NCBI GenBank assembly: GCA_963711835.1
Contig: CAVQFQ010000004.1
Coordinates: forward strand, 320,001-384,000
Origin: an uncultured delta proteobacterium
GTDB taxonomy: Bacteria; Desulfobacterota; RBG-13-43-22
Direction of reading: 5' to 3'
DNA: 64,000 nucleotides
Below are positions 1,368 through 33,629 of this stretch, piece by piece. Position numbers and translations under genes: made by a program. Every line of letters starts with the position of its first letter. Position 1 is the stretch's first letter. The notes beneath the pieces are model-generated. The model worked only from the letters and a program-made list of their open reading frames with translations, did not search any database and was not told the origin of the DNA.

Positions 1368-1432
1368 GGGACGTTCGTGCAGAGATTGCTTGAGGGCTTA
1401 TAGGGAATGAGTAAATAGATAATTATGCCAAG
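1368..1432 (+). repeat. GGGACGTTCGTGCAG element, left arm (copy A)
   Basis: GGGACGTTCGTGCAGAGATTGCTTGAGGGCTTATAGGGAAT...ATGCCAAG; related copies at 4243, 6158, 30903, 31722, 32860, 33595. Confidence 0.9.
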
Positions 1433-1488
1433 ATCAGGTGACGAATTGGCGTGTCTGTCAATTGCCAAGAACCAAACGGAGGGCGGAA

Positions 1489-3435
1489 ATGAGCAAGCTG
1501 ATCCATACGAAAAAGATCTATCTTATTATTGCAATCATCCTGGTGATCGCGCTCTTGTTGCTCTATAAAAAACAAGCTAAGCAGGTAAAAGTTTCAGCCT
1601 TTGGCCAGTATCAGGGTTATTCCGAGGCGATTTTTGATGGCACCCGGCGCACTTCCGATTTCTTAACGTTAGCAGACGGAACGCGGCTGGCCTATGATCT
1701 GATCCTTCCGACGAAAAATGGGGTTCCTGCCGACAAGCCCTTACCGGTCCTTTTCAAATATACCCCTTATGGACGGGCCTGGACCATTTACGATAAGAAC
1801 GGGAAGAACAATCTTGCCGAACTGGTAACCTTACCCTGGTATTACAAGCCTATGGTCCGGATTCGATCCTGGTTCAAAGGCAATGTGATGGATGCCCTGT
1901 CCAGAGCGGAATGGCTGAAGGAGATGGTGCACTCCGGCTACGCCGTGATCGTGGTGGATCGGCCGGGAACCGGGGCCTCCTTTGGAAAGATGTCTATGGA
2001 CCCCGAGGCAGGAGCCAAAGAAACCGACGAGATCCTCAATTGGATAGCAACCCGGAGGTGGTGCGACGGCCACATCGGGATGTTTGGCGACTCCATCCAG
2101 GCCCAAATCCAGTTCCAGGCTGCCGGCACCGGCAACCCGCACCTGAAAGCCATCTTGCCCGCTACCACCTGGATGGACAACTACAGCGCGGTCGTCTTCC
2201 CCGGTGGTGTCCTGAATAAAGCCATGACCCATTTCTATGTCCGGGTCAATAAGGCTTTTGACTCTCTGGCAACACCCGTTGACCAGGACAAGGATGGGAT
2301 CTTACTGGCCCAGGCGCGCGCAGAGCGCCACCGCCTGGCGGCGCTCGCGGAATCGGTAAAAGGTGTCTCGCAAGCGCCATACCGTGACTTCCTCACACCA
2401 AAGGGCAAAAACCCCTGGATAGATTATAACGCCCTTTATCCCCTTTTGGATCGGATCAACCGGTCAGGCGTACCGGTTTACTTGATTAACGGTTGGTATG
2501 ACATCTACGCGCGCGATAATTTCATGATCTATGCCAACCTGACTGGTCCCAAGCGCCTGCTCGTCCGCCCGACGGATCATGACGGTATCGAGGCTCCCGG
2601 ATCGGATATCGACTATGCGGCGGAAGCCCATCGCTGGTTCGACTACTGGCTCAAGGGGATCGACAACGGCATTATGAAGGAACCGCCCATCCACTATTAC
2701 CTCCAAGGCGTGGGCAAAAAAGAGGCCTATAAGATCACCGATGTCTGGCCCCTGAAAAACCAGAAAATTACCCGCTATTACTTCGGAGCAGGCACAACCG
2801 GTGGAACCGCCTCCCTCAATAATGGCACGCTGGCTCCTTCCTCACCCACCACCTCCAACGGATCCGATACCTATACAGTCGACTATACCACCACCACCGG
2901 CACTAAGCCGCACTGGACGGCCCTCGCTTCAGCCCACGAATACCCCAATATGCGTTCCAATGACGCCAAAGCCTTGACCTATACCACTCCGCTGTTGGAG
3001 GCAGCCGCACAGGTCATCGGACATCCGGTCGCGCATGTCTGGTTAACCGGTAAGGCCCCGGATCTGGACCTATTCGCCTACCTGGAGGAGGTGGATGGCA
3101 AGGGAAACTCGACCTACGTCACCCAAGGCAACCTCAGGGCTTCCCATCGAGTCCTCAGCCGGGCCCCGTTTGATAACCTGGGCTTGCCCTGGCACAATCA
3201 TTTCCAAAGCGAGGTCAAGTTGATCCCGACTGGAGAGCCAGTGGAACTGGTCTTTGATCTGCTGCCCACCGCCTACCAGTTTGCCAAGGGCAAAAGCATC
3301 CGTATTACCATCGCCTTCGCCGATGCCAACAACTTCGACACTCCGGTTATCGATCCGGCGCCAAAAGTGCAATTGTTGAGGGATAAAAATCACCCATCAT
3401 TTGTCGAACTCCCGGTTGTTCAGGGGCTACGGTGA
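1489..3435 (+). CDS. CocE/NonD family hydrolase (peptidase S15-like) with N-terminal membrane anchor
   Basis: DGTRL, YTPY, DRPGTGAS, GMFGDSI, GWYD, WFDYWLKG motifs and C-terminal jelly-roll domain; ATG 1489 follows GGAGG. Confidence 0.85.
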   Translation: MSKLIHTKKIYLIIAIILVIALLLLYKKQAKQVKVSAFGQYQGYSEAIFDGTRRTSDFLTLADGTRLAYDLILPTKNGVPADKPLPVLFKYTPYGRAWTIYDKNGKNNLAELVTLPWYYKPMVRIRSWFKGNVMDALSRAEWLKEMVHSGYAVIVVDRPGTGASFGKMSMDPEAGAKETDEILNWIATRRWCDGHIGMFGDSIQAQIQFQAAGTGNPHLKAILPATTWMDNYSAVVFPGGVLNKAMTHFYVRVNKAFDSLATPVDQDKDGILLAQARAERHRLAALAESVKGVSQAPYRDFLTPKGKNPWIDYNALYPLLDRINRSGVPVYLINGWYDIYARDNFMIYANLTGPKRLLVRPTDHDGIEAPGSDIDYAAEAHRWFDYWLKGIDNGIMKEPPIHYYLQGVGKKEAYKITDVWPLKNQKITRYYFGAGTTGGTASLNNGTLAPSSPTTSNGSDTYTVDYTTTTGTKPHWTALASAHEYPNMRSNDAKALTYTTPLLEAAAQVIGHPVAHVWLTGKAPDLDLFAYLEEVDGKGNSTYVTQGNLRASHRVLSRAPFDNLGLPWHNHFQSEVKLIPTGEPVELVFDLLPTAYQFAKGKSIRITIAFADANNFDTPVIDPAPKVQLLRDKNHPSFVELPVVQGLR

Positions 3436-3513
3436 GTTACGGTGATTTAATGAAACGGCTGGACATTTTCGAATAGTATTACAGGCTCTAAACCTCAACG
3501 ACCATAATAGACC

Positions 3514-4227
3514 ATGATTCCCTGGGAATTACTCGACAGCGCCCCGGTACCTGGAACCGCTCAGGAACTGGAGTTGTATAAGCGGGGTCAGGAGTTTTCG
3601 ATCCGAATGGGTGGCCGCGAAATCATGGGCAGCCGGGCCCATGGCTCAGAAGAGGCCCTGGCCGAACGGGCCTGTGCCCGGATCGCCGGCCGGCCTCGGC
3701 CCTGTATCCTGGTTGGGGGCCTGGGCCTGGGCTACACCGTTGCCGCGGCCCTGAGGCGGCTCGGGCCCGGGGGCCGGGTGATCGTAGCCGAACTGGTGCC
3801 GGCCGTGGTCCGATGGAACCGGGGCCCCCTGGCCCATCTGGCCGGTTATCCCCTTCAGGATCGGCGGGTCACCATCCTGGAAGGCGACGTCGTCCGAATC
3901 CTGCAGGCCCAACCCCGGGCCTTTGATGCCATCCTGCTGGACGTGGATAACGGTCCCGAGGACCTGATCCGGAAAGGCAACGACCGGCTCTACGATCGGT
4001 CTGGCCTGGAGGCCATCCGGGCGGCCCTGCGGCCGGGAGGGGTGCTGGGAGTCTGGTCAGCCGGCCCCGATCGGGCCTTCGTCCAGCGTCTGGAGCGCGG
4101 GGGTTTCCGGGTCGAGGAGGTCCGGGTCCGGGGTCCCCGGGGCGGACGGCGGCACACCATCTGGCTGGCTGCGATCCCGGATCGGCCCCGGATATCGCCG
4201 CCTCCTACCCGCCGCAGCCTGAAATAA
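3514..4227 (+). CDS. spermidine synthase-like SAM-dependent methyltransferase
   Basis: MIPWELLD start, LVGGLGLG motif I, FDAILLDVDNGP, LRPGG. Confidence 0.8.
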   Translation: MIPWELLDSAPVPGTAQELELYKRGQEFSIRMGGREIMGSRAHGSEEALAERACARIAGRPRPCILVGGLGLGYTVAAALRRLGPGGRVIVAELVPAVVRWNRGPLAHLAGYPLQDRRVTILEGDVVRILQAQPRAFDAILLDVDNGPEDLIRKGNDRLYDRSGLEAIRAALRPGGVLGVWSAGPDRAFVQRLERGGFRVEEVRVRGPRGGRRHTIWLAAIPDRPRISPPPTRRSLK

Positions 4228-4242
4228 ACAGCCCAATTAAGC

Positions 4243-4340
4243 GCGATGTTCGTGCAGAGATTGTTTGAGGGCTTATAAGAATAGGTTAAGCCGGCGTCAT
4301 GCCAAAGTTAGCAAGGTAAAATACTTCCTTGGTGTCCATG
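4243..4340 (+). repeat. GGGACGTTCGTGCAG element, long left arm (copy B)
   Basis: GCGATGTTCGTGCAGAGATTGTTTGAGGGCTTATAAG...CATGCCAAAGTTAGCAAGG...CCATG; colinear with the first ~100 nt of the copy at 31722. Confidence 0.9.
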
Positions 4341-4588
4341 CGTTTTTCGAGGGCGAGCGGGTTAAGTCGTTTCAGGGGTTTGAGCGGCAAGCCATGTTAC
4401 GGCTCGAACGGCTCCACGCGGCGGACCGTCTCATGGCTCTGAACACTCCCGGAAACCGGCTTGAAGCCCTTAAGGGTGATCGCAAAGGCCGGCACAGCAT
4501 CCGCATCAATGACCAGTGGCGGATTTGTTTTGAATGGCCGGATAACTCCCCGGGGCCGCTTAATGTGGAAATTGTGGACTATCATTAG
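4340..4588 (+). pseudogene. higB: HigB/RelE-family toxin, 5' truncated by the repeat
   Basis: PGNRLEALKGDRKGRHSIRINDQWRICFEW...VEIVDYH; native N-terminus absent, and the ORF-track start at 4265 lies inside the repeat. Confidence 0.75.
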
Positions 4589-4599
4589 GAGGATAAACT

Positions 4600-4914
4600 A
4601 TGGCAAGGATTATCATTCATCCAGGGGAACACCTGGCCGATGAATTAAAGGCGCTTGGCATGAGTGCCAACGAGCTGGCAAAAGAACTGGGCGTACCGAC
4701 AAACCGGCTTACTCAGATCATACGGGGCAAACGCGGAATTACCGGCGACACAGCCCTGCGTCTTGGCCGGTGGTTCGGCACGGGGCCGGATATTTGGGTA
4801 AATCTGCAAAAAAATTATGAGTTGCGGCTGGCAGCGATTGAAATAGGCGACGCGCTGAAAAAAATTCCTCAGCATTACGGCAAAGTGAAGACAAACGGCG
4901 CGCTACGCCCGTGA
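4600..4914 (+). CDS. higA: HigA antitoxin (HTH)
   Basis: IHPGEHL...ITGDTALRLGRWFG...WVNLQ; AGGAGG RBS; directly after higB. Confidence 0.9.
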   Translation: MARIIIHPGEHLADELKALGMSANELAKELGVPTNRLTQIIRGKRGITGDTALRLGRWFGTGPDIWVNLQKNYELRLAAIEIGDALKKIPQHYGKVKTNGALRP

Positions 4915-4962
4915 TATCAAACGACGGGATAGGGTCGCAAGCCACCGAAAAGTTATTCCGAA

Positions 4963-5108
4963 GGCCATGGGACGGGTGTGTGGCCTAGTATCCCGGGGTG
5001 ACGGGTGGACGTGTCTATCGAGATCCCGCAAACAAAATCACGGGATAGACACGAAGGCGTTATTGGAAAACGAGCTATAACCACATGCACCTGCTGCACG
5101 CACGTCCA
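4963..5108 (+). repeat. GGGACGTTCGTGCAG element, middle and right arm
   Basis: GGCCATGGGAC...ATCCCGGGGTGAC...CCCGCAAACAAAATCA...CTGCACGCACGTCC; matches 28706-28825 and ends in the near reverse complement of the left arm. Confidence 0.85.
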
Positions 5109-5146
5109 TTTTTCACAGAAAGCGCTGATCGAGAAAGCGAGGCGGA

Positions 5147-5623
5147 ATGACTAAGAAGAACCTGACCTTGGTGATGGAATGGCTTCGGCCGGCCGGCATA
5201 GGGCTGGCTATTTTTTTCGCCTATTATTTGGGCAAAGATGCGATAGCGCGATTTCACATTATGGGGCCGTTCGTGGTGATGCTCATGTCCGGCACAGTGG
5301 CTTTTGAATCGCTGTTCTTGGGCGAAGCGGCCTCCGAAAAAATTGGCTATAAGCCTGATCGCGCCTATCAAATTCAATCGGGGCTGGCCAATGCGGCCAC
5401 AGCCATCACGGCCTTGCTTGTTTATCTGCTGGATTGGGGGCGCTATGCGGATGCCGCCATAGTCACCGCGATGTTGCTGTTCTTTACTTTCTCGGCCGCA
5501 AATCATGCCGCCACAGCCATCATCGAACGGAACTTCAAGCCCGTCAATTTATTGCGTCCGCTGATGGCCTTGTTATTGATTGGCTTCCTGCTCCCCCACA
5601 TGATCCAAGCGCTGAATCAATAA
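5147..5623 (+). CDS. hypothetical multi-pass membrane protein
   Basis: 158 aa, about five hydrophobic segments, GAGG RBS. Confidence 0.7.
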   Translation: MTKKNLTLVMEWLRPAGIGLAIFFAYYLGKDAIARFHIMGPFVVMLMSGTVAFESLFLGEAASEKIGYKPDRAYQIQSGLANAATAITALLVYLLDWGRYADAAIVTAMLLFFTFSAANHAATAIIERNFKPVNLLRPLMALLLIGFLLPHMIQALNQ

Positions 5624-5654
5624 AGCTGCTGCGCGATAGAATAGGATTCGACCC

Positions 5655-6119
5655 ATGTTACATATTTATGTAGATGCCGATGCCTGTCCGGTGAAAGAGG
5701 AAGTTTACCGGGTAGCCGAGCGCCATGGGCTTCGGGTCATCCTGGTGGCCAATTCCTGGATGCGCATCCCGGCGGAGGACTGGATTGAACTGGTCATAGT
5801 CGATGATCAGTTTGACGCGGCGGATGACTACATAGTCGATCACCTTGAAACCGATGACATCGTAATCTCCGGGGATATTCACCTGGCCGCCCGGTGCCTG
5901 GCCTCTGGGGCCTATGTGCTTCGCCCGACAGGCCGACCCTTTACCGAAACGAACATCGGCGACGCCCTGGCCACCAGGGACCTCCTTTCCCGGCTTCGGG
6001 ATGCCGGGAGCCTGGCCGGCGGACCTCCGCCCTTCAAAAAGAAAGACCGTTCCCTTTTCCTGCAGCAACTCGATGAGATCATTCAGTCGATCCGCCGGAA
6101 AAGGGTCTCTCCCTCCTGA
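5655..6119 (+). CDS. YaiI/YqxD (DUF188) family protein
   Basis: IYVDADACPVK, DAADDYI, GGPPPF...DR motifs. Confidence 0.9.
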   Translation: MLHIYVDADACPVKEEVYRVAERHGLRVILVANSWMRIPAEDWIELVIVDDQFDAADDYIVDHLETDDIVISGDIHLAARCLASGAYVLRPTGRPFTETNIGDALATRDLLSRLRDAGSLAGGPPPFKKKDRSLFLQQLDEIIQSIRRKRVSPS

Positions 6120-6157
6120 TTGATTCAATTCGTTAGTGGAGCAGTAGCCGTTGAAGC

Positions 6158-6183
6158 CGTTCGTGCAGAGACTGCTTGAGGGC
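6158..6183 (+). repeat. GGGACGTTCGTGCAG element, short left arm (copy C); right boundary of array 1
   Basis: CGTTCGTGCAGAGACTGCTTGAGGGC just before a convergent gene. Confidence 0.85.
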
Positions 6184-6194
6184 AGACTCCCGAA

Positions 6195-7502
6195 CTAATC
6201 CGCTGGGAACACCCGGTCACTGAAACTGTTGCGGAAGAGACCCTGCGGATCGCAGGTCCGCCGCAGCCGGTTGAAGGCGTCGTAAGCCGGATAAAGCGCC
6301 CGCAGCTCCGTCTGGGTCCTCGAGAAGGTCTTGCCCCAATGGGGGCGTCCCTCATAGTCGCGCATCAGGGCCTCGAATTCGGCGAAATACCCTTTCGCCC
6401 ATTTGGGGCTGCCCACGTAGGCCCCAATATAGCAACTATCGCGACCGCTGGCCGGACTCATGGGGATGTCGTCTGAGGCGACAAAACGCACCTCCAAGGG
6501 AAAATTCACCCGGTAATCCGCTTTGAGCACCATCTGTCTGGTCTCGTCAATGGCCTTGGCCGCCTTCTCGATCGGTATGGCATACTCCGCCTCCTGGTGG
6601 ATAGGAATCGAGCTGCTGACCTTGATCACCCGGTCGCTGCGATCCACCCGCCGGCGGGGATGAAAATGAATAGTCTGAACCGAATTATGTAAAAAAGGAA
6701 TGGTTTGGGGGAAGAGGCGGCCCAGCCCCATGAGTCCGGTAAACAGGAAGCCGGAGATTCCGGTCCGGTCCATAAATCCCGGGAAGCCGAAGCCGCCCCG
6801 AGGTTTATCCGTCTTGTTGAAGAAGTACACCTGGACCTTGTCGGTGTAGGCCAACCAATGAAACTTGCAGTAGTCGTTGTCCCTAAGGTACCCTTCCAGA
6901 TCGGCCAGGGCGGTGTCGAAATCCACAAGCTCCAGCCGCTCCTCCAGATCAAAGGCCTCGACGCAGTTAAAGGTGATCTCGGTGACCACCCCCAGGCAGC
7001 CGAGATTGACCCGGGCCGCTGAAAAAAGTTCCGGCTCGTGTTGGGCATCGAGTTCATGGACCTGCCCGAGACCGTCGAGCATCCGGATCTTTTCGATGGC
7101 GGTTGATAGTATCCGGGTCCTGGCCCCGGTGCCGTGGGTGCCGGTCCCGATATACCCGCCGGCGGTCTGCAGGATAATGGAGCCGAAATTATCAAAGGCC
7201 AGTCCGTGCCGGGCCAGAACTTCATTGACGTCTTTTAGACGGGCGCCGGCCTGGAGCCGGATCAGGCGCCGATCCCGGTCCACCTCCAGCACCTCGGCCA
7301 TCCGGTCGAAGCGGACGGCGATCTCCGGCGAATCGTTAATGTCCGACCATGACAAAGCCGAGCCCAGGGCCTTGATGTGTTTGCCGTCTTCAGCAGCCCG
7401 CCGAATCAGCCCGGCGATCTCCCCTTCGGACCTCGGATAATGGATCTCTTTAGGTTCCCAGGTCCGGCTGCCGTCCCAATTTCGGATAATTTTTGAACTC
7501 AT
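6195..7502 (-). CDS. FAD-linked aldonolactone oxidoreductase (D-arabinono-1,4-lactone oxidase family)
   Basis: GGYIGTGTHG, LGCLGVVT, FPLEVRF, RPHWGK, DPQGLF motifs. Confidence 0.85.
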   Translation of the reverse strand: MSSKIIRNWDGSRTWEPKEIHYPRSEGEIAGLIRRAAEDGKHIKALGSALSWSDINDSPEIAVRFDRMAEVLEVDRDRRLIRLQAGARLKDVNEVLARHGLAFDNFGSIILQTAGGYIGTGTHGTGARTRILSTAIEKIRMLDGLGQVHELDAQHEPELFSAARVNLGCLGVVTEITFNCVEAFDLEERLELVDFDTALADLEGYLRDNDYCKFHWLAYTDKVQVYFFNKTDKPRGGFGFPGFMDRTGISGFLFTGLMGLGRLFPQTIPFLHNSVQTIHFHPRRRVDRSDRVIKVSSSIPIHQEAEYAIPIEKAAKAIDETRQMVLKADYRVNFPLEVRFVASDDIPMSPASGRDSCYIGAYVGSPKWAKGYFAEFEALMRDYEGRPHWGKTFSRTQTELRALYPAYDAFNRLRRTCDPQGLFRNSFSDRVFPAD

Positions 7503-7698
7503 GGCGATCTCCTTAACCCCTCCTAAAAATAAAAAACTCTATCCCTTTGAAATAGGAAACAGGGCTTTTCCTTTCTGCCAATCTTCCTCCGGTTTAGGTT
7601 AAACGGAAAAGTAAAAAGAGCTTTGCCTAGTTAGCCTTCCAAATAACATGGTGGTCGAGTGTTGTCAATAATTCAGCCATCCTGACTCGTTGATACTG

Positions 7699-8403
7699 CT
7701 ATTCCCTCTGCTTGGCCCGGCGGACAATCGCTTCGGCCAGGATCTGGGCGGAATCAAAGACCATCACGGGCACGTCGATGGCTTCCGCTATGATGGAAAG
7801 CTCCGTGCAGGCGATTACCAGCGCCTCGGCCCCCTTTCGGGTCAGCTCCTGGGCCGCCTCTTTCAGGACGGAGCTTTCCTTTACCCCGTACCGGCCGGTC
7901 TTGATAATTTTAATGGATTGCATGATCCGATCCTGGATTTCCGCTGAGGGAAACATTACCTCCACCCCCCGCCGCTTGAAGGGCCGGAGATAGATCTCAG
8001 TCAGGATGACCGCCCTGGAGGTCAGCAGACCGACGCGTTTCAGGAGGGAGTTTTTCTTGAGGACCCTTTCCACGGTCAGGTCAACCATATTAAGGACGGG
8101 AATGCCGGCGGCTGATCGGATTTCTTCATAGTAGCAATGAGCCGTATTGCAGGGCATGGCCAGGAAGTCGGCCCCGTAGGCCGCCAGGCTGCGGGCCATT
8201 TCCTGCAGGCAGGGGACCGGGCTCTCGCCGCTTCCCTCGATGATGGCTTTGATCCGGGAGGGGATTTTGGGGTTGTTGTCCACGATCAACCGGATGTGGT
8301 CCTCATCGTCCCGGGCCGGGGTGGCCCGGATCACCCGTTCCATGAGGTCCACGGTGGCTTCCGGCCCCATCCCGCCGATTATCCCGACGATTTTATCACC
8401 CAT
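7699..8403 (-). CDS. aspartate/glutamate racemase family protein (possible cysteate racemase)
   Basis: GIIGGMGPEAT, PCNTAH, ACTEL; start set at MGDKIVG because the ORF extension is a translated repeat. Confidence 0.85.
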   Translation of the reverse strand: MGDKIVGIIGGMGPEATVDLMERVIRATPARDDEDHIRLIVDNNPKIPSRIKAIIEGSGESPVPCLQEMARSLAAYGADFLAMPCNTAHCYYEEIRSAAGIPVLNMVDLTVERVLKKNSLLKRVGLLTSRAVILTEIYLRPFKRRGVEVMFPSAEIQDRIMQSIKIIKTGRYGVKESSVLKEAAQELTRKGAEALVIACTELSIIAEAIDVPVMVFDSAQILAEAIVRRAKQRE

Positions 8404-8408
8404 ATGTG

Positions 8409-8557
8409 TTAACCCAAAATCCGAAATCCGAAACCAAAATCCGAAACAAACACGAAGGTCCAAAATCCAAATGATCAAAATAAAAACGTTTTGGGATTTT
8501 GAAATTTGGTCATTTGAATTTGTTTCGGATTTCGATATTCGGATTTCGAGTTTAACC
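8409..8557. repeat. palindromic heptamer-repeat element
   Basis: Tandem AAATCCG-type units facing their complements (TTCGGAT); flanked by TTAACC direct repeats; related to 20077-20231 and 51455-51525. Confidence 0.85.
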
Positions 8558-8563
8558 TATACT

Positions 8564-9580: not shown

Positions 9581-9623
9581 CTCAACCTCCTTTCTTATAT
9601 CGCGAGTTGTTATCCAGCTTAGA

Positions 9624-9703
9624 GCATCCGTTATCTGTCATCTGTCATCCGTCATCGTTTTTCCATCCGGCATCTGGCATCCGATATCCAGTATCAAGTA
9701 TCC
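9624..9703. repeat. degenerate 7-mer tandem repeat (CATCCGT/CATCTGT/CATCCGG)
   Basis: About ten imperfect heptamers between era and dcyD. Confidence 0.7.
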
Positions 9704-9707
9704 GCTT

Positions 9708-19388: not shown

Positions 19389-20076
19389 CATTGATGTTTC
19401 CTATGGGGATGTGCAGGTCCTCTGGGATGTCTCATTCGAGGTCAAGGAAAAAGAAATTTTAGTCCTGGTCGGGGCCAACGGGGCCGGGAAATCCACCCTC
19501 CTAAAAACCATTTCGGGGTTACTGCGGCCTTCCCAAGGTACCATTGAATTTAGTGGGACCCGTTTGGATCAAGTCCCTGACAATAAGATCGTCGTATTAG
19601 GCATCGCCCATGTCCCTGAGGGCCGCCGCCTATTTCCTGAGATGACCGTGGAGGAAAACCTGATCATGGGCTCTCTGGCCCCTAAGGCCAAGGCTAAAAG
19701 AAAAGAGACCATGAAATGGGTCTATCAATTGTTCCCCCGGTTGGAAGAAAGAAGGAAGCAGTACGCCCGGACCCTGAGCGGTGGGGAACAACAGATGTGC
19801 GCCATTGGTAGAGGGCTAATGGCTCTCCCCCGACTACTCCTCTGTGATGAACCTTCCCTGGGCTTGTCGCCTATTCTGGTCCAGGATATTTTCAAAATTG
19901 TCAAACGGGTTAATGAGGAGGGGGTGACCGTTCTTCTGGTCGAACAGAATGTCAAACAGACCCTGTCCATTTGCAATCGAGCCTATGTCTTGGAAAACGG
20001 GCGAATTGTCCTGACCGGGACCGGCCAGGAACTGCTTAACAATCCGCATGTCAAAGAGGCCTATCTGGGGATTTAA
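19372..20076 (+). CDS. livF: ABC ATP-binding protein LivF-type
   Basis: GANGAGKST, VPEGRRLF, LSGGEQQM, LVEQN. Confidence 0.92.
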   Translation: MLRVNNIDVSYGDVQVLWDVSFEVKEKEILVLVGANGAGKSTLLKTISGLLRPSQGTIEFSGTRLDQVPDNKIVVLGIAHVPEGRRLFPEMTVEENLIMGSLAPKAKAKRKETMKWVYQLFPRLEERRKQYARTLSGGEQQMCAIGRGLMALPRLLLCDEPSLGLSPILVQDIFKIVKRVNEEGVTVLLVEQNVKQTLSICNRAYVLENGRIVLTGTGQELLNNPHVKEAYLGI

Positions 20077-20231
20077 AAATCCTAAATCCGAAATCCGAAG
20101 CACGAAATTCGAAACAAGTTGAACTGTAGAAAATTCGAAACAAGGCGGAAAAAGGTAAAAATGTTTTGAACATTTGTTATTTGAATTTCATATTAATTGT
20201 TTCGGATTTCGATATTCGAATTTCGAATTTT
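20077..20231. repeat. palindromic heptamer-repeat element
   Basis: AAATCCGAAATCCG...TTCGAAACAA / TTGTTTCGGATTTCGATATTCG; same family as 8409-8557. Confidence 0.85.
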
Positions 20232-20240
20232 ATTGATTAA

Positions 20241-23635: not shown

Positions 23636-23639
23636 ACTT

Positions 23640-23920
23640 TTTTAGCCACAGACACACACGGACAAAGGCGGACTATTTTTTAGCCGGGCGACCAAGGTTC
23701 AGAACTGTCACCGGGGCAGGCTTGCCCGGCTAAAACCGCCAAGGCTGGCGAGAACAGATTTTTCCGCCATTAATTATCGGATTATTTGAATTAATGTTAA
23801 TAAAAAGGCCTTAAAAAAACTTTTTTACCACAGACAAAGACAGGATCCCGCTTATAGCGGGACGGGGACCTGCCGCCGCCCTAATCGTCCGCCTTTGTCC
23901 GTATGGTTCTGTGGCTAAAA
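23640..23920. mobile_element. MITE/REPIN-like palindromic element
   Basis: TTTTAGCCACAGA..ACGGACAAAGGCGGAC / GTCCGCCTTTGTCCGT..TCTGTGGCTAAAA terminal inverted repeats; nested hairpins; related copy at 25131-25319. Confidence 0.75.
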
Positions 23921-25126: not shown

Positions 25127-25130
25127 GCTT

Positions 25131-25319: not shown

Positions 25320-25347
25320 TCTTTTCCGAATTTTTAGGGTTAGGAAA

Positions 25348-27600: not shown

Positions 27601-27632
27601 TTTGCAGTCAGTTAATTCGAACTTTTAGGCCA

Positions 27633-27707
27633 ATGACCAGCGATCCTGAATTTAAGGCTGTAGAAAAATTGGTTCCCGTGCAATGGATAACCGGCCGGAA
27701 AAAATAA
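27633..27707 (+). pseudogene. C-terminal remnant of a VapC/PIN-like toxin
   Basis: Hand translation TSDPEFKAVEKLVPVQWI resembles the VapC C-terminal TGDPEF..VE...I.W pattern. Confidence 0.45.
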
Positions 27708-27766
27708 TCAGAGTTTTTGCCACCCTTGTCGATTATGACAAATTCGTGTCGAAGAGGTCAAACCCC

Positions 27767-27829
27767 ACCTAACGAGCGCGTCCAGCCAATCGCCGAAAAA
27801 ACCGGCTCTGGCTGACGCCCGTGTTGCGC
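27767..27829 (+). repeat. integron attC site
   Basis: ACCTAAC ... GTTGCGC cores, 63 bp; imperfect palindrome GCGTCCAGCCA..GCCG/CGGC..TGGCTGACGC with unpaired bases. Confidence 0.8.
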
Positions 27830-27855
27830 GTTGAATAGCCAACCAATAATAACGC

Positions 27856-27884
27856 TTGACAATAATAACGTCTCCCGTTAACAT
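27856..27884 (+). promoter_or_regulatory. sigma70 promoter and operator of higBA
   Basis: TTGACA-17 bp-TAACAT; overlapping palindrome TAACG-N5-CGTTA; ATG 6 nt downstream of the -10. Confidence 0.75.
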
Positions 27885-27890
27885 CTATTC

Positions 27891-28172
27891 ATGCTAAAGA
27901 GCTTTCGTTGCAAAGAAACTGAGAAGGTCTTTCTACGGCAACGGTCAACTCGATTCCCTACTAATGTTTACCGCATCGCTCTACGGAAGCTACTCTTGCT
28001 TGATGCCGCGGAGAAATTGGAAGACTTACGTATTCCACCAGGGAATCGCTTGGAGAAACTTACAGGCAATCGCCAAGGGCAACATAGCATTCGCATCAAT
28101 GACCAGTGGCGTATCTGTTTTCGCTGGTCAGAGGGGGATGCCTATGAAGTTGAAATCGTAGATTACCATTAG
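27891..28172 (+). CDS. higB: HigB (RelE/ParE family) toxin
   Basis: MLKSFRCKETE, PPGNRLEKL, HSIRINDQWRICF, EIVDYH. Confidence 0.93.
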   Translation: MLKSFRCKETEKVFLRQRSTRFPTNVYRIALRKLLLLDAAEKLEDLRIPPGNRLEKLTGNRQGQHSIRINDQWRICFRWSEGDAYEVEIVDYH

Positions 28173-28184
28173 GAGGTCATCACT

Positions 28185-28493
28185 ATGAAGACAAAAATAC
28201 TCGCGCCTATCCACCCAGGTGAAATTCTTATGGAAGAATTTTTGAAACCGCTGGGGATCAGTCAGTATAAATTGGCTAAAAACATCAATGTCCCAGCCCG
28301 TCGTATAAACGAGATCGTTCATGGCAAACGTTCCATTAGTGCCGATACGGCTTTGAGGCTATCTCGTTATTTTAACCTTTCAGAACGGTTTTGGTTGAAC
28401 CTCCAGGCACGATACGATCTAGAGATGGAAAAGGACAAATTTAAGGGGCGCATCGAATCTGAGGTAAAAGTACTTGAACTGCAAAGCGCCTAA
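28185..28493 (+). CDS. higA: HigA antitoxin
   Basis: PIHPGEIL.EEFL, RINEIVHGKRSISADTALRL, FWLNLQ. Confidence 0.93.
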   Translation: MKTKILAPIHPGEILMEEFLKPLGISQYKLAKNINVPARRINEIVHGKRSISADTALRLSRYFNLSERFWLNLQARYDLEMEKDKFKGRIESEVKVLELQSA

Positions 28494-28552
28494 CGAGTCG
28501 CTCAAGAGGAATGCGGCAAAAAGCCGCCGCTCCCCTTAGCCTTGTCTTATAT
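28488..28552 (+). repeat. integron attC site (right core degenerate)
   Basis: GCCTAAC overlapping the higA stop; GCTCAAGAGGA..GCGGC-AAAAA-GCCGC..TCCCCTTAGC stem; right core reads CTTATAT rather than GTTRRRY. Confidence 0.75.
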
Positions 28553-28570
28553 GACGAGGAGGTTGTCCAA

Positions 28571-28717
28571 ATGGACACATTTATAAGCTATTCATCTGAC
28601 ATCAAGAAAACGGCTGGAAAAGTAAAGGCTTTCCTGGCTACCTACGGATTCAATTGTTTCTTAGCTCACGAGGATATCCCACCCCAGACTGTCTGGCCAG
28701 CTGAAATCCTGGGGTGA
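28571..28717 (+). pseudogene. TIR-domain protein, N-terminal fragment truncated by the repeat
   Basis: MDTFISYSS...GFNCFLAHEDIPPQTVWPAEI is a TIR_2-like start; GAGGAGG RBS; frame enters the repeat at 28706 and stops. Confidence 0.75.
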
Positions 28718-28825
28718 CCGATGGGCGGGTCTGTCGAGGTCCCGCAAACAAAATCATGGAATAGACACAAAGGCGTTACTATAAATAGCGGGCTATATCC
28801 CATGCACGTTCTGCACGAACGTCCC
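28706..28825 (+). repeat. GGGACGTTCGTGCAG element, right arm (copy D)
   Basis: Ends CTGCACGAACGTCCC, exact reverse complement of the 15-nt left end; colinear with 4990-5108. Confidence 0.9.
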
Positions 28826-28854
28826 TTTTTTCATGGAAATGGAGGTATTGAAAA

Positions 28855-30036
28855 TTGATGAAAAAAAAATTCACTTTCCCCTGTTATTTTTTTAAGACAA
28901 ATTATGCCGGTATAATAAGCGAGAGGGTAACGATTTTATTATTAACAATAGTATTAATATTATCATCTTCGATACCATTACCTTTTATTAGTCCCGTTAA
29001 TGTCCATGCCGAAGTTTCTTTTGTCAAGCTACCCGATCCGGCATCCTTACCGCCGGACCCTGGAGTTGGCGTCGCCTTCAGTCCCGATTCCCAATACATG
29101 GCAGTAGCCCATTTTACTTATACTACCTCCACCAATATCACCATATACAAGAGAAGCGGCGATACATTCACCAAGCTGCCCGACCCCTCGGATCTGCCCG
29201 CTGGCAATGGACTTGGTGTGGCCTTCAGCCCCGACTCCACCTATCTGGCGTTGGCTCATGCCGAGAGCCCCTTTGTTACCATATTCAAAAGGAGTGGTGA
29301 TACATTCACCAAGCTGACCAACCCCATGGACATACTGCCGGATGGCTATGGGTATGGAATTGCCTTTAGCCCCAACTCCGCCTACCTGGCGGTAATTCCC
29401 TGGAACGGTACCTATATAAATATTTACAAGATTGGGGCCGGAGACACATTCACCAAATTGATTAACCAGCCAGATATACTGCCTAGTTCCAATGGACGTT
29501 ACATAGCTTTTAGTCACGACTCCACGTATATGGCGGTAACCCTTGAGAGCAATCCCAATATCACCATGTACAAAAGGGCCGGTGATTCCTTTACCAGACT
29601 GCCCATACCGGCACTGGGCGGTCGTGGACAAGGTGTAACCTTTAACCACGATTCCATCTACCTGGCAGTAGGAAGTGATAGTGAATATGGTAGTCCCGTG
29701 ATTACTGTATACAAGAGAGACGGCGACTCCTTCACCACGCTGCCCGGTCCGGCATATCAGCCTCCTGGCACTGTTGAGGGTGTTTCTTTTAACCCCGACT
29801 CCAGCTATTTGGCAGCTTCACATAGTGGCATACCTTCTATCTCTATATACAAAAGAAGTGGAGACACCTTCACCAAGTTGGCAGACCCGGCGGGGTCATT
29901 GACCTCTAACACCGGAACTGGCATAGCCTTCAGTCCTTTATCTCAGTACCTGGCAGTGGCTCTATATTTCACCCCATATATCAACATATACAAATACTAT
30001 GTTGAGATGTTTCTCCCGCTGGTTCTCAGGAATTGA
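28855..30036 (+). CDS. secreted beta-propeller repeat protein (WD40/lactonase-like)
   Basis: N-terminal hydrophobic segment; about seven ~44-aa repeats GVAFSPDSxYLAV...IYKRSGDTFTKL; ends FLPLVLRN. Confidence 0.8.
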   Translation: MMKKKFTFPCYFFKTNYAGIISERVTILLLTIVLILSSSIPLPFISPVNVHAEVSFVKLPDPASLPPDPGVGVAFSPDSQYMAVAHFTYTTSTNITIYKRSGDTFTKLPDPSDLPAGNGLGVAFSPDSTYLALAHAESPFVTIFKRSGDTFTKLTNPMDILPDGYGYGIAFSPNSAYLAVIPWNGTYINIYKIGAGDTFTKLINQPDILPSSNGRYIAFSHDSTYMAVTLESNPNITMYKRAGDSFTRLPIPALGGRGQGVTFNHDSIYLAVGSDSEYGSPVITVYKRDGDSFTTLPGPAYQPPGTVEGVSFNPDSSYLAASHSGIPSISIYKRSGDTFTKLADPAGSLTSNTGTGIAFSPLSQYLAVALYFTPYINIYKYYVEMFLPLVLRN

Positions 30037-30118
30037 GCGAGTGATTTAGGCAAAACTGCTGATATCAGTAAAGCTGATCTGCATCGACCTCGTTGAATGA
30101 TAGAGAAGGAGGATTGCC

Positions 30119-30892
30119 ATGAGTGAATACCGAGGGGTTGCCATCGTGACCGGATCATCAAGGGGGGTTGGGTCGGCAACGGCAAGATTGCTTGCCAAGG
30201 AAGGCTTTGATGTCGTCGTAAATTATTCGAAGAGCGAAGGAGGAGCGAAGGAAACGATTGCCGCCTGCGAAGCCCTTGGAGCAAAGACCCTGCTCTGTCA
30301 GGCAGATGTCTCGCAGGACGCTGATTGTCGCCGCATGGTCGCGGAAGTGGTAAAAAAGTGGGGAGGCGTTGATGCCCTGGTGAACAACGCCGGGATCACG
30401 AAATTCTGTGCTGCTGATAATCTCGAAGGTCTCAGCAAGGAGGATTTTCTCAATATATATGCCGTCAATCTGGTTGGCCCTTATCAGATGATAAGGGCGG
30501 TAGCCCCCCACATGAAAGAGAAGGGGAAAGGGGTTGTCGTCAATGTCGCATCCGTCGCCGGGGTGACTGCGATCGGAAGTTCAGTTGCCTATGTCGCCTC
30601 GAAGGCAGCCCTGATCGCCATGACGAAAGCCCTTGCCCGGGCCCTCGGCCCGGAAATCCGCATAAACGCCGTCTGCCCGGGTTTCATCCAGGGTGAATGG
30701 CTGAAGGAGGGCATGGGCGAGGCGTTCTATGAGACTGTAAAGAATTACCTGGAAAGCACCTTACCGTTACGCGCCACATGTACATCGGAGAAGGTAGCGG
30801 AAGCCATCTTCTTTTTTATACGGGGAGCCGATCTCGTCACCGGTGAAACCCTGCTCTTCGACGGTGGTCAACACCTGGGAAAGCTTATGTAG
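30119..30892 (+). CDS. short-chain dehydrogenase/reductase
   Basis: TGSSRGVG, NNAG, YVASK, INAVCPG; AAGGAGG RBS. Confidence 0.92.
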   Translation: MSEYRGVAIVTGSSRGVGSATARLLAKEGFDVVVNYSKSEGGAKETIAACEALGAKTLLCQADVSQDADCRRMVAEVVKKWGGVDALVNNAGITKFCAADNLEGLSKEDFLNIYAVNLVGPYQMIRAVAPHMKEKGKGVVVNVASVAGVTAIGSSVAYVASKAALIAMTKALARALGPEIRINAVCPGFIQGEWLKEGMGEAFYETVKNYLESTLPLRATCTSEKVAEAIFFFIRGADLVTGETLLFDGGQHLGKLM

Positions 30893-30902
30893 AAAATAAT
30901 AG

Positions 30903-30943
30903 GGGACATTCGTGCAGGGATTGCTTGGGAGCCTATAAGAAAT
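30903..30943 (+). repeat. GGGACGTTCGTGCAG element, left arm (copy E)
   Basis: GGGACATTCGTGCAGGGATTGCTTGGGAGCCTATAAGAAAT, 10 nt after the SDR stop. Confidence 0.88.
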
Positions 30944-31005
30944 GTTCACATGGCAAGTGCTGCGGCTGCGTTGCTGGCCTTGCTATCTGAATGGAAATAG
31001 AAGAC

Positions 31006-31070
31006 CGATAACCAGCGGTTGCACCGGATCGGCCATGAAGCGGGCCTCCCGGCGACCCGCGATGTTGAGC
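31006..31070 (+). repeat. integron attC site
   Basis: CGATAAC ... GTTGAGC cores, 65 bp; GCGGTTGC.CCGG..GGCC / GGCC..CCGGCGACCCGC imperfect stem. Confidence 0.75.
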
Positions 31071-31118
31071 TCAAGACGGATTGGGTTCACCTGCCCTCGT
31101 TGCTGGTCAGGTTTACTA

Positions 31119-31156
31119 TTGACATCGCCTGGTGCTACACGTATAGTACACGTATA
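31119..31156 (+). promoter_or_regulatory. sigma70 promoter and operator of the TA operon
   Basis: TTGACA-17 bp-TATAGT; tandem TACACGTATA repeats overlapping the -10. Confidence 0.75.
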
Positions 31157-31168
31157 AGGAGGCATGCG

Positions 31169-31399
31169 ATGCAGAAAAAGCTAACCATAACCGTGGATGA
31201 AGTAGTCTATGAGGGGCTCCACAAGACAATCGGTCCTCGCAAAATAAGCAAGTTCATTCAGGAATTGGTCCGGCCTCACGTCATACGGCCCGATCTCGAG
31301 TCGGCTTATGCCGAAATGGCTAAGGACAAGAAGCGGGAGAAAGAGGCCATGGAATGGGCTGAGGTTACCTTCAAGGACATAGTTCATGAAAAGGTGTGA
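31169..31399 (+). CDS. antitoxin of the PemK/MazF module
   Basis: [10 protein letters not shown]...YAEMAKD..RE.EA.EW; AAGGAGG RBS; overlaps the toxin start. Confidence 0.8.
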
Positions 31400-31709
31400 G
31401 GTTTGGTGGGTTAACTTTGACCCTTCAATTGGTGGTGAGATCAGAAAGAAGCGGCCTGCCGTAATTGTAAGTAATGACACGTCTAATAGGTTCCTTAACC
31501 GAGTTCAGGTCGTCCCTCTAACCAGTAATGTAGATCGCCTCTATCCCAGCGAGGCAGCGGTCGTCTTTGAAGGGAAAGAAAGCAAGGCTATGGCAGATCA
31601 GTTGGCGACTGTTAGCAAGGAAAGGCTTTTCCAACGAGCCGGCGTTCTGTCCCAGAAGGATATGTGTAAGATCGAGGAAGCCATCAAGGTCCAACTGGAT
31701 ATTCATTAG
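31386..31709 (+). CDS. mazF: PemK/MazF family endoribonuclease toxin
   Basis: [33 protein letters not shown]. Confidence 0.9.
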
Positions 31710-31721
31710 AAAACCGTAAAA

Positions 31722-31863
31722 GGGCACGTTGGTGCAGGAAGTGCTTGCGGGCTTATAGGGAATAGTTAATTGCCAACCATGCCAAAGTGAGCAAGGTTAA
31801 ACACTTCGTGGGGGCCATGGGACAGGTTGAGAGGCGTGTTATCCCGGGGTGACCGATGGGCGT
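31722..31863 (+). repeat. GGGACGTTCGTGCAG element, left arm plus middle (copy F)
   Basis: Runs from the left-arm sequence into ATCCCGGGGTGACCGATGGGCG, which is shared with the right arms, linking both halves. Confidence 0.88.
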
Positions 31864-31918
31864 TTCGACCCAACAAACTCGTGGCAGGGGTCAACGCCGC
31901 ATTATGCGAGGATGAGGA

Positions 31919-32287
31919 ATGGAATTCGACAAAATCAACCTTTTGGAAAAGTTCGCAAAGCTGCCCGCTGGCGACTATGCAGTGGGGCTGATCGCCAAGA
32001 TGAATGACTATGAGTTCAAAATCGTGAAATTCAAAGGCGACTTCGTCTGGCACAGTCACCCTGATACAGACGAGACATTTATCATCATAGAGGGAACGCT
32101 TGTAATGAACTTCCACGACCGAAAGGTGGAAGTTCAAACTGGAGAGATGATTGTCATCCCGAAAGGTCTCGAACATAAGCCTTCTTCTGAGAACGGATAC
32201 AAAGCCCTCCTCATTGAGCCGGAGGGAGTGCCCAATACCGGTGATGTTCAGAGCGAAATGACCATCGCAAAGGTTGAATGGGTGTAA
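31919..32287 (+). CDS. cupin domain protein
   Basis: GDFVWHSHPDTDE, GEMIVIPKGLEH, PNTGD. Confidence 0.88.
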   Translation: MEFDKINLLEKFAKLPAGDYAVGLIAKMNDYEFKIVKFKGDFVWHSHPDTDETFIIIEGTLVMNFHDRKVEVQTGEMIVIPKGLEHKPSSENGYKALLIEPEGVPNTGDVQSEMTIAKVEWV

Positions 32288-32389
32288 AAGTGATGATCGG
32301 GCCAACCCCGGTTTGGATCGACACCATCCATTCGTTTTAGCCGTTCAGCTGTCCTAATTCATTGCAAGGTTTGTCGAAAGGACTTTCCG

Positions 32390-32737
32390 GTGAACCTTAT
32401 CGAGAAAATAGCCAATGGCATAGCACAAACGAAGTTTGCAAGCAAAGCCATCAATGAACGTGCAGACCTCAGTGCATTCAAGCAGAAACCAACAGTACAG
32501 AATACTTTTGGAATATTTCTGATGTGTTGTAGTTACATCATTGGCTGGCCAGCGGTAGGGTTGACCGGAGCTTTATCGATTTACTGGAGCCAGCCTTTGC
32601 TAATTATCATAGGAGCACCCATCTTCCTTATAACTGCCCACCTGGTTTTTTTACTGGGAATGTATTTAGCTGGGGGCAGATATGTCATGATACTCCTTAG
32701 ATGGGTCACACGGGTCACGCTTGAGAAGCTGATGTGA
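32390..32737 (+). CDS. hypothetical membrane protein
   Basis: 115 aa with 2-3 hydrophobic segments; same orientation as the array. Confidence 0.65.
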   Translation: MNLIEKIANGIAQTKFASKAINERADLSAFKQKPTVQNTFGIFLMCCSYIIGWPAVGLTGALSIYWSQPLLIIIGAPIFLITAHLVFLLGMYLAGGRYVMILLRWVTRVTLEKLM

Positions 32738-32859
32738 GGAGAGACGGTCTATCGTCATCCCGTTGAAGGGGACGTAGCTCCGATAATTCCGTTAATATTT
32801 TTCTCTCTCTTCTTGGCCCAGGTTTTTAAGCAGAGTTTGTAATGAGCAAATCATAAAAG

Positions 32860-32903
32860 GGGACGTTCGTGCAGAGATTGCTTGGGGGCCTATAAGAAAT
32901 AGG
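32860..32903 (+). repeat. GGGACGTTCGTGCAG element, left arm (copy G)
   Basis: GGGACGTTCGTGCAGAGATTGCTTGGGGGCCTATAAGAAATAGG. Confidence 0.9.
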
Positions 32904-32916
32904 CCGCATTAGGGCT

Positions 32917-33591
32917 ATGATTATGGGACAGGAATTAAAAAACATAGAGCGGATGTACGATACAGTAGCCAAAGAATATTCGGATACATTTTCTGGTGAA
33001 CACGAAAAAAAACCGAAAGATCAAGAAATACTCCACAGATTCTCGCAAGAGATCGGGGGCAGAAGGCCGGTTTGGGATTTCGGCTGTGGTCCCGGTCAAA
33101 CTACAAACTACCTGAAAAACCTTGGTATTGAAATCTCAGGGCTGGATCTGTCAGAAAAAATACTGGAACAGGCAAGAACAATTCATCCAGAGATACACTT
33201 CCGAAAGGGAAATATTCTTGAACTCGAATTTGAAAACGACTCAATAGGCGGTGTTGTTGCTTTCTATGCTATTGTTCACTTTACAGAAGAACAAGTAGAA
33301 ATAGCCTTTCGTGAAGCATTTCGTGTATTACAGCCGGGTGGATTATTCCTTTTCACATACCACATCGGTGAGGAGACAATCCACTTAGACGAGTTTCTCG
33401 GTAAGAAAATCGATATAGATTTCATGTTTTTCACTACTGATTTCATTTTCAGTTGTCTAAAGGCCAGTGGATTTGAAAAGATAGAGATAATTGAGAGAGA
33501 CCCATACCCCGGGGTGGAGTACGAAAGCCGAAGGGCTTATGTGTTTGCGATAAAGCCAGTCGTGCCAAAATCGCTCAACCCTGCGTTATAA
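32917..33591 (+). CDS. class I SAM-dependent methyltransferase
   Basis: DFGCGPG, GLDLS, RVLQPGG. Confidence 0.88.
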   Translation: MIMGQELKNIERMYDTVAKEYSDTFSGEHEKKPKDQEILHRFSQEIGGRRPVWDFGCGPGQTTNYLKNLGIEISGLDLSEKILEQARTIHPEIHFRKGNILELEFENDSIGGVVAFYAIVHFTEEQVEIAFREAFRVLQPGGLFLFTYHIGEETIHLDEFLGKKIDIDFMFFTTDFIFSCLKASGFEKIEIIERDPYPGVEYESRRAYVFAIKPVVPKSLNPAL

Positions 33592-33594
33592 AGC

Positions 33595-33629
33595 GGGACG
33601 TTCGTGCAGAGATTGCTTGAGGGCTTATA
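33595..33629 (+). repeat. GGGACGTTCGTGCAG element, left arm (copy H); right boundary of array 2
   Basis: 35 nt identical to the start of copy A at 1368. Confidence 0.92.

What the first reader, a model, noticed from the sequence alone, without database searches (positions are those of the whole stretch)
1368..33629. A ~240-bp inverted-repeat element punctuates, truncates and terminates two integrase-less cassette arrays: candidate gene-capture system
Seen: seven left arms (1368, 4243, 6158, 30903, 31722, 32860, 33595; consensus GGGACGTTCGTGCAGAGATTGCTTGAGGGCTTATA) and two right arms (4963-5108, 28706-28825, ending CTGCACG(A/C)ACGTCC). All have the same orientation, and I found them only in the two accessory arrays. 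Copy F overlaps the right arms, giving a ~240-bp consensus with 15-bp terminal inverted repeats, yet no copy is intact. Arms sit mostly a few to ~40 nt after stop codons, or are fused to truncated genes (higB, TIR, a 3' tail at 30944). Both arrays end in a left arm facing a convergent gene. Known: integron arrays are co-oriented and separated by attC sites. Inference: this repeat acts as a second, polar recombination or cleavage site that adds and deletes genes alongside attC, with the enzyme supplied in trans.
Basis: partly seen in the sequence, partly recalled or inferred. Interest (0 to 1): 0.85.

Follow-up and report, generated by a model that had tools for sequence, protein, structure and literature searches.

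The report
Mini-TIRtron ends shuffling accessory genes
The repeat is a gutted, ~250-base copy of a named but never bench-tested jumping gene (a TIRtron, whose single-strand-cutting enzyme is still intact elsewhere in this genome), and related strains show a 1.4-kb gene block present or absent starting exactly five bases outside its left end, so these ends likely help add and remove accessory genes, although a dedicated integron-like capture system is not shown.

Summary
The repeats are real, but they are pieces of a known kind of element. The ~250-bp unit is an internally deleted TIRtron: left inverted repeat, decayed promoter, first ~25 codons of a TIRYT (HUH/Y1 transposase) gene, last ~33 codons, right inverted repeat. 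Intact minis exist on another contig and in a metagenome relative. An intact 329-aa TIRYT between near-identical repeats lies elsewhere in the genome. In the window, one complete mini carries higBA inside it. Four contigs from related strains lack window 4237-5646, which starts 5 nt outside the left repeat, runs ~530 nt past the right one, holds no attC and has no target duplication. Tandem end duplications share at least 5 nt of outer flank (34 of 46). In 20 relatives, TIRYT genes lie near attC ten times more often than chance and are co-oriented (18 of 19), unlike DDE or IS110 controls. But only 3 of 23 arm loci in this genome are near attC, array 1 has no convincing attC, and other junctions scatter over 5-19 nt. 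The scan has reported TIRtron minis, the ~5-base cut and cassette neighbours on other DNA before. Verdict: new variant of a known kind.

The parts
269..328 (+).
   Evidence: 43/57 identity to the C14 mini, positions -5..52
1362..1437 (+). Left end: 5-nt outer flank, TIR, decayed promoter region and TIRYT start codon with the first codons
   Evidence: 67/76 identity, mini positions -5..70
4237..4340 (+). Left part of a complete mini-TIRtron (positions -5..97); 4237 is the first base of the block absent from relatives
4341..4963 (+). Passenger inside the mini: 5'-truncated higB and higA; the same 5-nt motif stands at both joints
4964..5114 (+). Right part of the same mini (positions 92 to right TIR): decayed 3' end of a TIRYT gene plus right TIR
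5115..5646 (+). DNA beyond the right TIR (DUF6790 gene 5147-5623) that is present or absent together with the mini
6146..6183 (+). Terminal, eroded left arm of array 1, facing the convergent ALO gene
   Evidence: a contig of run X9 keeps more interior before 6189
27767..27829 (+). attC site
   Evidence: structural heuristic; model hit 40 bits (model seed)
28571..28708 (+). 5' part of a TIR-domain gene fused to the mini interior; the longer (frameshifted) gene precedes the intact mini on C14
   Evidence: 196 bp, 100% identical to the end of C14
28706..28832 (+). Right part of a mini; in L169 the same beta-propeller gene follows an intact mini
30897..30944 (+). Left arm 10 nt after the SDR stop codon; a contig of run X1 joins the beta-propeller flank (30065) to a left arm at its -5 base, without the SDR gene
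   Evidence: (table 5c)
31006..31070 (+). attC site
   Evidence: seen by eye; model hit 44 bits (model seed)
31717..31884 (+). Longest left copy (positions -5..~183 of the mini)
   Evidence: 146/168 identity
32854..32903 (+). Left arm; the methyltransferase start (32917) sits 58 nt from the TIR start, where the TIRYT start codon would be
33589..33641 (+). Terminal left arm of array 2; its outer TAA is the methyltransferase stop; faces the convergent glutaredoxin

Best explanation
The arms are the ends of non-autonomous, internally deleted TIRtrons, and a TIRYT HUH/Y1 transposase encoded elsewhere in the genome likely nicks single-stranded DNA about five bases outside each inverted repeat and joins that end to new DNA one end at a time, which would add, carry or delete neighbouring genes and stack co-oriented left ends in accessory islands. 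SHOWN: the element's anatomy and ancestry; an intact enzyme with matching repeats; a strain polymorphism whose left edge is 5 nt outside the left repeat and whose right edge is ~530 nt beyond the right repeat; no target-site duplications at the intact copies or at that insertion; end duplications sharing at least 5 nt of outer flank; enrichment of TIRYT genes near attC in relatives. INFERRED: the cut position and the 5'-phosphotyrosine joining chemistry (by analogy to TnpA-REP, PMC8266576); that this enzyme made the window's junctions; whether the 1.4-kb block was gained or lost; why left ends outnumber right ends. The irregular inner-side breaks are probably ordinary deletions or imprecise ends of transfer.
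For: Ancestry: the C14 mini's first 116 nt align to TIRtron left ends (interior z 6-19 against shuffles in 9 of 9 parents) and translate to TIRYT residues 1-25 (iE 1.7e-5). The right ~130 nt are 79% identical to the 3' end of a TIRYT gene plus TIR in L239. Enzyme: C17:331826-332815, 329 aa, Pfam Y1_Tnp above cut-off plus DnaA_C-like HTH below cut-off, HFH and YIHLNP motifs, between 18-bp inverted repeats one base from the mini's. A frameshifted copy with the mini's exact TIR core is on C15. Polymorphism: contigs of X1 and X9 join 4236 to 5647 with 2 letters between, X10 joins 4230 to 5647 with 8, and L168 shows the same. An X4 contig bridges the filled left joint, 4181-4340. The block has no attC hit at E<=1. 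X1 joins 30065 to 32854, again the -5 base of an arm. End duplications: 34 of 46 share 5-13 nt of outer flank, 12 share 0-2, none 3-4; null 1.2%. Left ends: A at -4 and -3 in 81%, TAA at -8..-3 in 19 of 36 versus 3 of 36 further out. Shuffling around the mini: same upstream gene with different downstream (window vs C14), and same downstream gene with different upstream (window vs L169). attC link: 19 of 130 TIRYT loci within 5 kb of an attC, 1.9 expected, 18 of 19 co-oriented; controls DDE_Tnp_1 3 of 148 (1.65 expected) and IS110 1 of 80 (1.0 expected).
Against: Arm-less homologues of outer flanks stop aligning 5 to 19 nt outside the repeat, not at one base (21 of 22 rows; many rows are redundant and two carry an arm-like motif; one GC-rich row ends at +3). 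Shared flanks in duplications reach 13 nt, and the 46 pairs are not independent, with several per locus. Only one clean empty/filled case was found in the window, it cannot be polarised, and the 2019 sediment runs may be one campaign. Only 3 of 23 arm loci of this TIR family in G000 lie within 5 kb of an attC (0.84 expected, P 0.048), and only 1 of the 81 loci scanned held an attC (many of those loci are chance pattern matches). Inner breaks show microhomology (the same 5 nt at both higBA joints; 3 nt at the TIR-gene joint), as ordinary deletion gives. I found no biochemical test of any TIRYT in the papers read.
Confidence: 0.58

Rival explanations
1. Passive decay. Minis inserted as whole units in dispensable accessory regions, where they are tolerated; later deletions and recombination between copies left partial arms and shuffled flanks, while the genes arrived by other routes.
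For: Microhomology at inner joints; breakpoints spread over 5-19 nt; 20 of 23 arm loci in G000 are not near attC and lie on both strands; window vs C14 vs L169 flank swaps are what crossing-over between two minis would give.
Against: Random deletion does not predict two independent joins at exactly the -5 base, the gap at 3-4 nt in end duplications, or 8 left ends against 2 right ends, all on one strand.
Confidence: 0.25
2. Dedicated second cassette system. Left arms work like attC: the segment from one arm to the next is excised as a circle by TIRYT and re-inserted at another arm, in concert with integron cassettes.
For: Co-oriented arms separate genes; joins fall at the -5 base of existing arms; TIRYT genes are enriched and co-oriented at attC in relatives, including inside a complete integron (G013:C174); several joins fall inside attC sites (C14 mini; L190; window 4236 against L168).
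Against: The one mapped block does not end at an arm. Inner remnants vary from ~35 to ~185 nt and abut truncated genes. No reordered unit was seen. Arm promoters are decayed: no promoter-like site at the four arms scanned. Most arms are away from attC.
Confidence: 0.1
3. Passenger model. TIRtrons and minis ride inside integron cassettes or are reshuffled by IntI (at attC or attG sites) or by an IS91-type enzyme; co-orientation merely follows cassette or replication-strand orientation.
For: TIRYT genes lie between attC sites in relatives. IntI inserts cassettes at short GWT genomic sites (10.1101/2022.09.11.507474), and the TIR core contains GTT. An IS91-type Y2 transposase lies ~4.4 kb from the C14 mini.
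Against: No integron integrase over the cut-off in G000, only fragments (genome 89% complete). The 4237-5646 block carries no attC. The joins map outside the TIR, not at its GTT.
Confidence: 0.07

Closest known systems
TIRtron / TIRYT (Di Nocera, De Gregorio, Rocco 2013, PMC3733652) = TnpA-REP subclass 2.1 (Quentin 2018, PMC6006769) = RAYT group 1 (Bertels 2017, PMC5581495)
   Same: HUH/Y1 gene with C-terminal DnaA-like HTH between terminal inverted repeats carrying GGGGWSAS; derived TIR families occurring as singles, dimers and clusters.
   Different: The passages I read describe no internally deleted ~250-bp minis, no passenger genes, no cut site, no empty/filled alleles and no link to attC arrays.
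REPtron / REPIN with TnpA-REP (PMC8266576)
   Same: Related enzyme family; 5'-phosphotyrosine cleavage and strand transfer on single-stranded DNA; non-autonomous repeats acted on in trans.
   Different: REPs are GTAG-tagged hairpins cut at CT or CA; here each end is a non-palindromic GGGGAC repeat with an A-rich outer pentamer.
Subclass 2.1 tnpA-REP beside prochlorosin clusters (10.1101/2020.03.09.984088)
   Same: Same subclass; full and truncated copies interspersed with variable gene clusters; proposed diversifying role.
   Different: Those genes face procA, the authors found no inverted repeats, and their post-submission note withdraws causal support. Here the ends are co-oriented with the cargo.
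CALIN / SALIN integron remnants (10.1101/2022.02.28.482270; 10.1101/2022.09.11.507474)
   Same: Array 2 has two attC sites and no integrase nearby.
   Different: Most gene boundaries are TIRtron ends rather than attC; array 1 has no convincing attC.
IS91/ISCR one-ended rolling-circle capture and MITE-flanked composite units (recalled, no call)
   Same: DNA beyond one end can travel with the element; ends can be used in trans.
   Different: IS91/ISCR use Y2 or Y1 rolling-circle enzymes with ori/ter ends; classical MITEs use DDE enzymes and leave target duplications, which are absent here.

Membership tests
TIRtron (TIRYT, subclass 2.1) | Y1/HUH transposase with HUH and Y---NP motifs | tested here: met
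   C17 parent: Pfam Y1_Tnp 31.5 bits, cut-off 23; HFH at 60 and YIHLNP at 119. NCBIfam REP_Tyr_transpos 62 bits, below its cut-off of 80.
TIRtron (TIRYT, subclass 2.1) | C-terminal HTH / Bac_DnaA_C-like domain | tested here: met
   PF08299 E 4e-5, residues 260-307, below the gathering score
TIRtron (TIRYT, subclass 2.1) | Gene flanked by terminal inverted repeats with GGGGWSAS | tested here: met
   18-bp repeat at C17; GGGGAC-type repeat pairs also at the other full-length TIRYT genes of G000
TIRtron (TIRYT, subclass 2.1) | Window repeat descends from such an element | tested here: met
TIRtron (TIRYT, subclass 2.1) | Placement in the subclass 2.1 tree or profile of Quentin 2018 | not tested
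   Assigned by domain order, length and repeat motif only
TIRtron (TIRYT, subclass 2.1) | Enzyme binds and cuts these repeats | not testable with these tools
   Needs biochemistry
REP / REPIN | GTAG-tagged palindromic ends | tested here: not met
   Ends read GGGGACGTT and are not self-complementary; the whole mini folds only through its two TIRs (z -3.1)
Classical (DDE) MITE | Target-site duplication | tested here: not met
   None at the C14, L169 or C17 copies or at the 4237-5646 block
CALIN | At least 2 attC sites, no integrase (IntegronFinder 2.0): array 2 | tested here: met
   27767 and 31006 (both seeds of my own model); no IntI over cut-off in G000
CALIN | At least 2 attC sites: array 1 | tested here: not met
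   Only 107-162 at E 0.98
Structured RNA families | Rfam match | tested here: not met
   Only a tRNA at 56872 in window plus L002

The most novel reading that the evidence does not exclude
TIRtron ends are a second, HUH-driven gene-shuffling system in Desulfobacterota accessory islands. TIRYT nicks 5 nt outside the repeat, prefers existing left ends and the unpaired parts of attC hairpins as targets, and so builds and erodes cassette arrays without an integron integrase.
Probability: 0.2. Interest if true: 0.75.

Novelty: new variant of a known kind. Interest (0 to 1): 0.4.

Why it matters
TIRYT (subclass 2.1) is the second largest TnpA-Y1 subclass, in 14.9% of strains (PMC6006769), yet I found no cut site or activity for it in the papers read. 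This locus gives a ready test set: an intact enzyme, its matching ends, a 250-bp mini, a cargo-loaded mini, and an empty site that predicts the cut. If the ends do move neighbouring genes and favour attC arrays, they would help explain how integrase-less arrays keep changing.

Tried and rejected
IS1111/IS110 ends or a group II intron remnant: my first guesses from memory, dropped once the TIRYT parent was found; no Rfam match. Arms as promoters for downstream genes: full TIRtrons have a TTGACA-type promoter behind the left repeat (read by eye), but no promoter-like site was found at the four arms in 30700-33900. copA-glutaredoxin empty site: 0 of 13 relative copA loci had the glutaredoxin or any tested array-2 gene within ~1.5 kb, so this was uninformative. 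The mini's middle and 3' interior did not match 8 of 8 first-choice parents and were resolved only by L239. An exact left-arm pattern found 0 stretches in genome contigs; the 16-mer scan covered 5 of 64 parts and included many chance GC-rich hits. No TIRYT relative in viral contigs, no mini in plasmids, no PDB sequence match. My note that ~9 of 11 attC sites lie near TIRYT remnants mixed several repeat families; the strict test gave 3 of 23. Excised circles and split reads could not be tested: only assembled contigs were served, none holding more than 0.19 of the words. The C14 contig ends in the 196 bp shared with the window, so a strain mixture or repeat at that spot is not excluded (contamination 6.4%).
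Full report
OBSERVATION. The window is G000:C4:320001-384000. An eighth, worn arm lies at 269-328. The right parts and the 15-bp inverted repeat are as described. Three statements fail: intact copies exist, the repeat family is genome-wide, and array 1 has no convincing attC.

WHAT IT IS. A genome search found an intact 251-bp copy at C14:56554-56304 and a 1,078-bp element at C17:331768-332845 with near-identical ends. The long element encodes a 329-aa protein with Pfam Y1_Tnp above cut-off and a weak DnaA_C-like HTH, and HFH and YIHLNP motifs. Di Nocera et al. named such elements TIRtrons and their enzymes TIRYT, with the repeat motif GGGGWSAS (PMC3733652; passages; section 16; figures and supplements not seen). 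Quentin et al. equate them with subclass 2.1 and RAYT group 1 (PMC6006769; abstract, passages and section 31). The mini's first 116 nt are a TIRtron left end with the start codon and codons 1-25. Its last ~130 nt are 79% identical to the 3' end of a TIRYT gene and right repeat in L239; eight other parents did not match that part. So the unit is an internal-deletion derivative. G000 holds several full-length TIRYT genes, each with its own repeat pair, and 19 of 20 family genomes have the protein. The same repeat flanks TIRYT genes in other Desulfobacterota, sometimes as stacks of truncated left ends (L111, L118, L162).

ANATOMY IN THE WINDOW. 4237-4340 covers mini positions -5..97 and 4964-5114 covers 92 to the end, so higBA sits inside one complete mini, with the same 5 nt at both joints. 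The right part at 28706 is fused to the 5' part of a TIR-domain gene; on C14 the longer gene precedes an intact mini 746 bp further on. In metagenome contig L169 the same beta-propeller gene follows an intact 240-bp mini with different DNA upstream. On C14 the mini sits between the left part of one attC-like sequence and the remainder of another (read by eye).

STRAIN EVIDENCE. Contigs of runs X1 and X9 join 4236 to 5647 with two letters between, X10 joins 4230 to 5647 with eight, and L168 shows the same join. A contig of X4 bridges the filled left joint and stops aligning at 4340, where higB begins. The 1,410-bp block starts at the base 5 nt outside the left repeat, ends ~530 nt beyond the right repeat, has no attC hit at E<=1 and no target duplication. 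In array 2 a contig of X1 joins 30065 to the -5 base of an arm, without the SDR gene, and X1 and X4 hold ~60-bp repeat dimers. These are related strains (0.11-0.19 of words), all 2019 sediment runs that may be one campaign; joints were read at 85-88% likeness; gain versus loss cannot be told.

CUT POSITION. Left ends of 36 TIRYT starts show A at -4 and -3 in 81%, T at -5 in 58% and G at -6 in 53%; 21 right ends show a weaker bias. Of 46 tandem end duplications, 34 share 5-13 nt of outer flank, 12 share 0-2 and none 3-4, against 1.2% for random pairs; several come from one locus. This fits a nick at least 5 nt outside the repeat, with the end joined to variable 3' ends, as TnpA-REP chemistry allows (PMC8266576; passages). 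Against a single fixed base: arm-less homologues stop aligning 5-19 nt outside the repeat in 21 of 22 partly redundant rows.

LINK TO attC. I built a covariance model from 14 attC-like sites. In 20 family genomes, 19 of 130 TIRYT loci lie within 5 kb of a listed attC (1.9 expected) and 18 of 19 are co-oriented. I dropped G000 rows and adjacent fragments of split genes; 32 protein and 73 attC rows were not listed by the tool; one attC was a model seed; three contigs contribute two loci each; kin are not independent. Controls: DDE_Tnp_1 3 of 148 (1.65 expected) and IS110 1 of 80 (1.0 expected), both dominated by expansions in a few genomes. One TIRtron lies inside a complete integron (G013:C174). 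Against: in G000 only 3 of 23 arm loci of this repeat are near an attC (0.84 expected, P 0.048), and 1 of 81 wider loci held one. Co-orientation could also follow from shared replication-strand bias or from neighbouring genes tending to run one way (my knowledge, not tested). G000 has only integrase fragments. Array 2 meets the two-attC CALIN definition (10.1101/2022.02.28.482270; passages); array 1 does not.

MECHANISM. Most likely (0.58): TIRYT in trans nicks about 5 nt outside each repeat and joins ends singly, so minis, solo left ends and adjoining genes are inserted, carried or deleted, and left ends stack in one orientation. Rivals: passive decay (0.25), a dedicated attC-like cassette system (0.10), passengers of IntI or IS91 (0.07; attG sites per 10.1101/2022.09.11.507474, passages).

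NOVELTY. The class is named. Nine full-text searches found no paper describing TIRtron minis with cargo, a cut site or an attC link; the library lacks most subscription journals and I read no supplements. The nearest report is subclass 2.1 genes and fragments among prochlorosin clusters (10.1101/2020.03.09.984088; whole main text; supplements not seen), whose authors later found no strong evidence for causation. Bertels et al. call group 1 among the most IS-like RAYT groups (PMC5581495; passages). The scan's own notes hold 2,252 findings with the word TIRtron, including minis at strain-variable borders and a cut about five bases outside the repeat; these are unchecked AI notes and not support, and I read them after reaching my reading. 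Verdict: new variant of a known kind, interest 0.4; novel case 0.2 probable, 0.75 if true.

Noticed in passing
window 33646-33888 (-): Glutaredoxin gene with an in-frame TGA where the first cysteine of CxxC would be; likely a selenoprotein (Pfam Glutaredoxin E 1e-13 when read through). No SECIS search done.
   Followed up: partly
window 6135-6147; L168:1474-2310: The last codons of an OmpA-family gene appear to remain just before the terminal arm of array 1; L168 has the whole gene before an arm.
   Followed up: partly
G000:C5:298848-299072 (L008, L177): An integron-integrase C-terminal fragment ends against the left repeat of an intact TIRtron; a second fragment lies at C5:91684-92004.
   Followed up: partly
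L003:18053; window 32765-32844; L003:10775 and 11958: Ends of at least three other TIR families also border accessory genes: one opens array 1 upstream of the window, one lies inside array 2 (91% to C8), and a GGGGTC-type pair sits with remnants of another Y1 gene and weak attC hits.
   Followed up: partly
L169:552-1340 (-): The 3' end of copA is duplicated around a nucleotidyltransferase-like gene pair, like the ends of an integrated element.
   Followed up: no
L002:5926-7902: Tyrosine recombinase (frameshifted) plus IS91-type Y2 transposase ~4.4 kb from the intact mini.
   Followed up: no
L004 near C15:170640; L186 near C5:130634; L168:340-400: Arms that lack the outer GGGG are fused to a short GTAG-type palindromic repeat, hinting at a second join point inside the repeat.
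   Followed up: no
window 51191-51446 and 61283-61498; 23640-23920; 8411-8554 and 20076-20230: Other inverted-repeat and short-repeat families unrelated to the finding; earlier scan notes describe hairpin MITEs in this genome.
   Followed up: no
window 348-1328; L003:18200-20000: The dehydrogenase and the long gene that opens array 1 look frameshifted; decay or assembly error not told apart.
   Followed up: no
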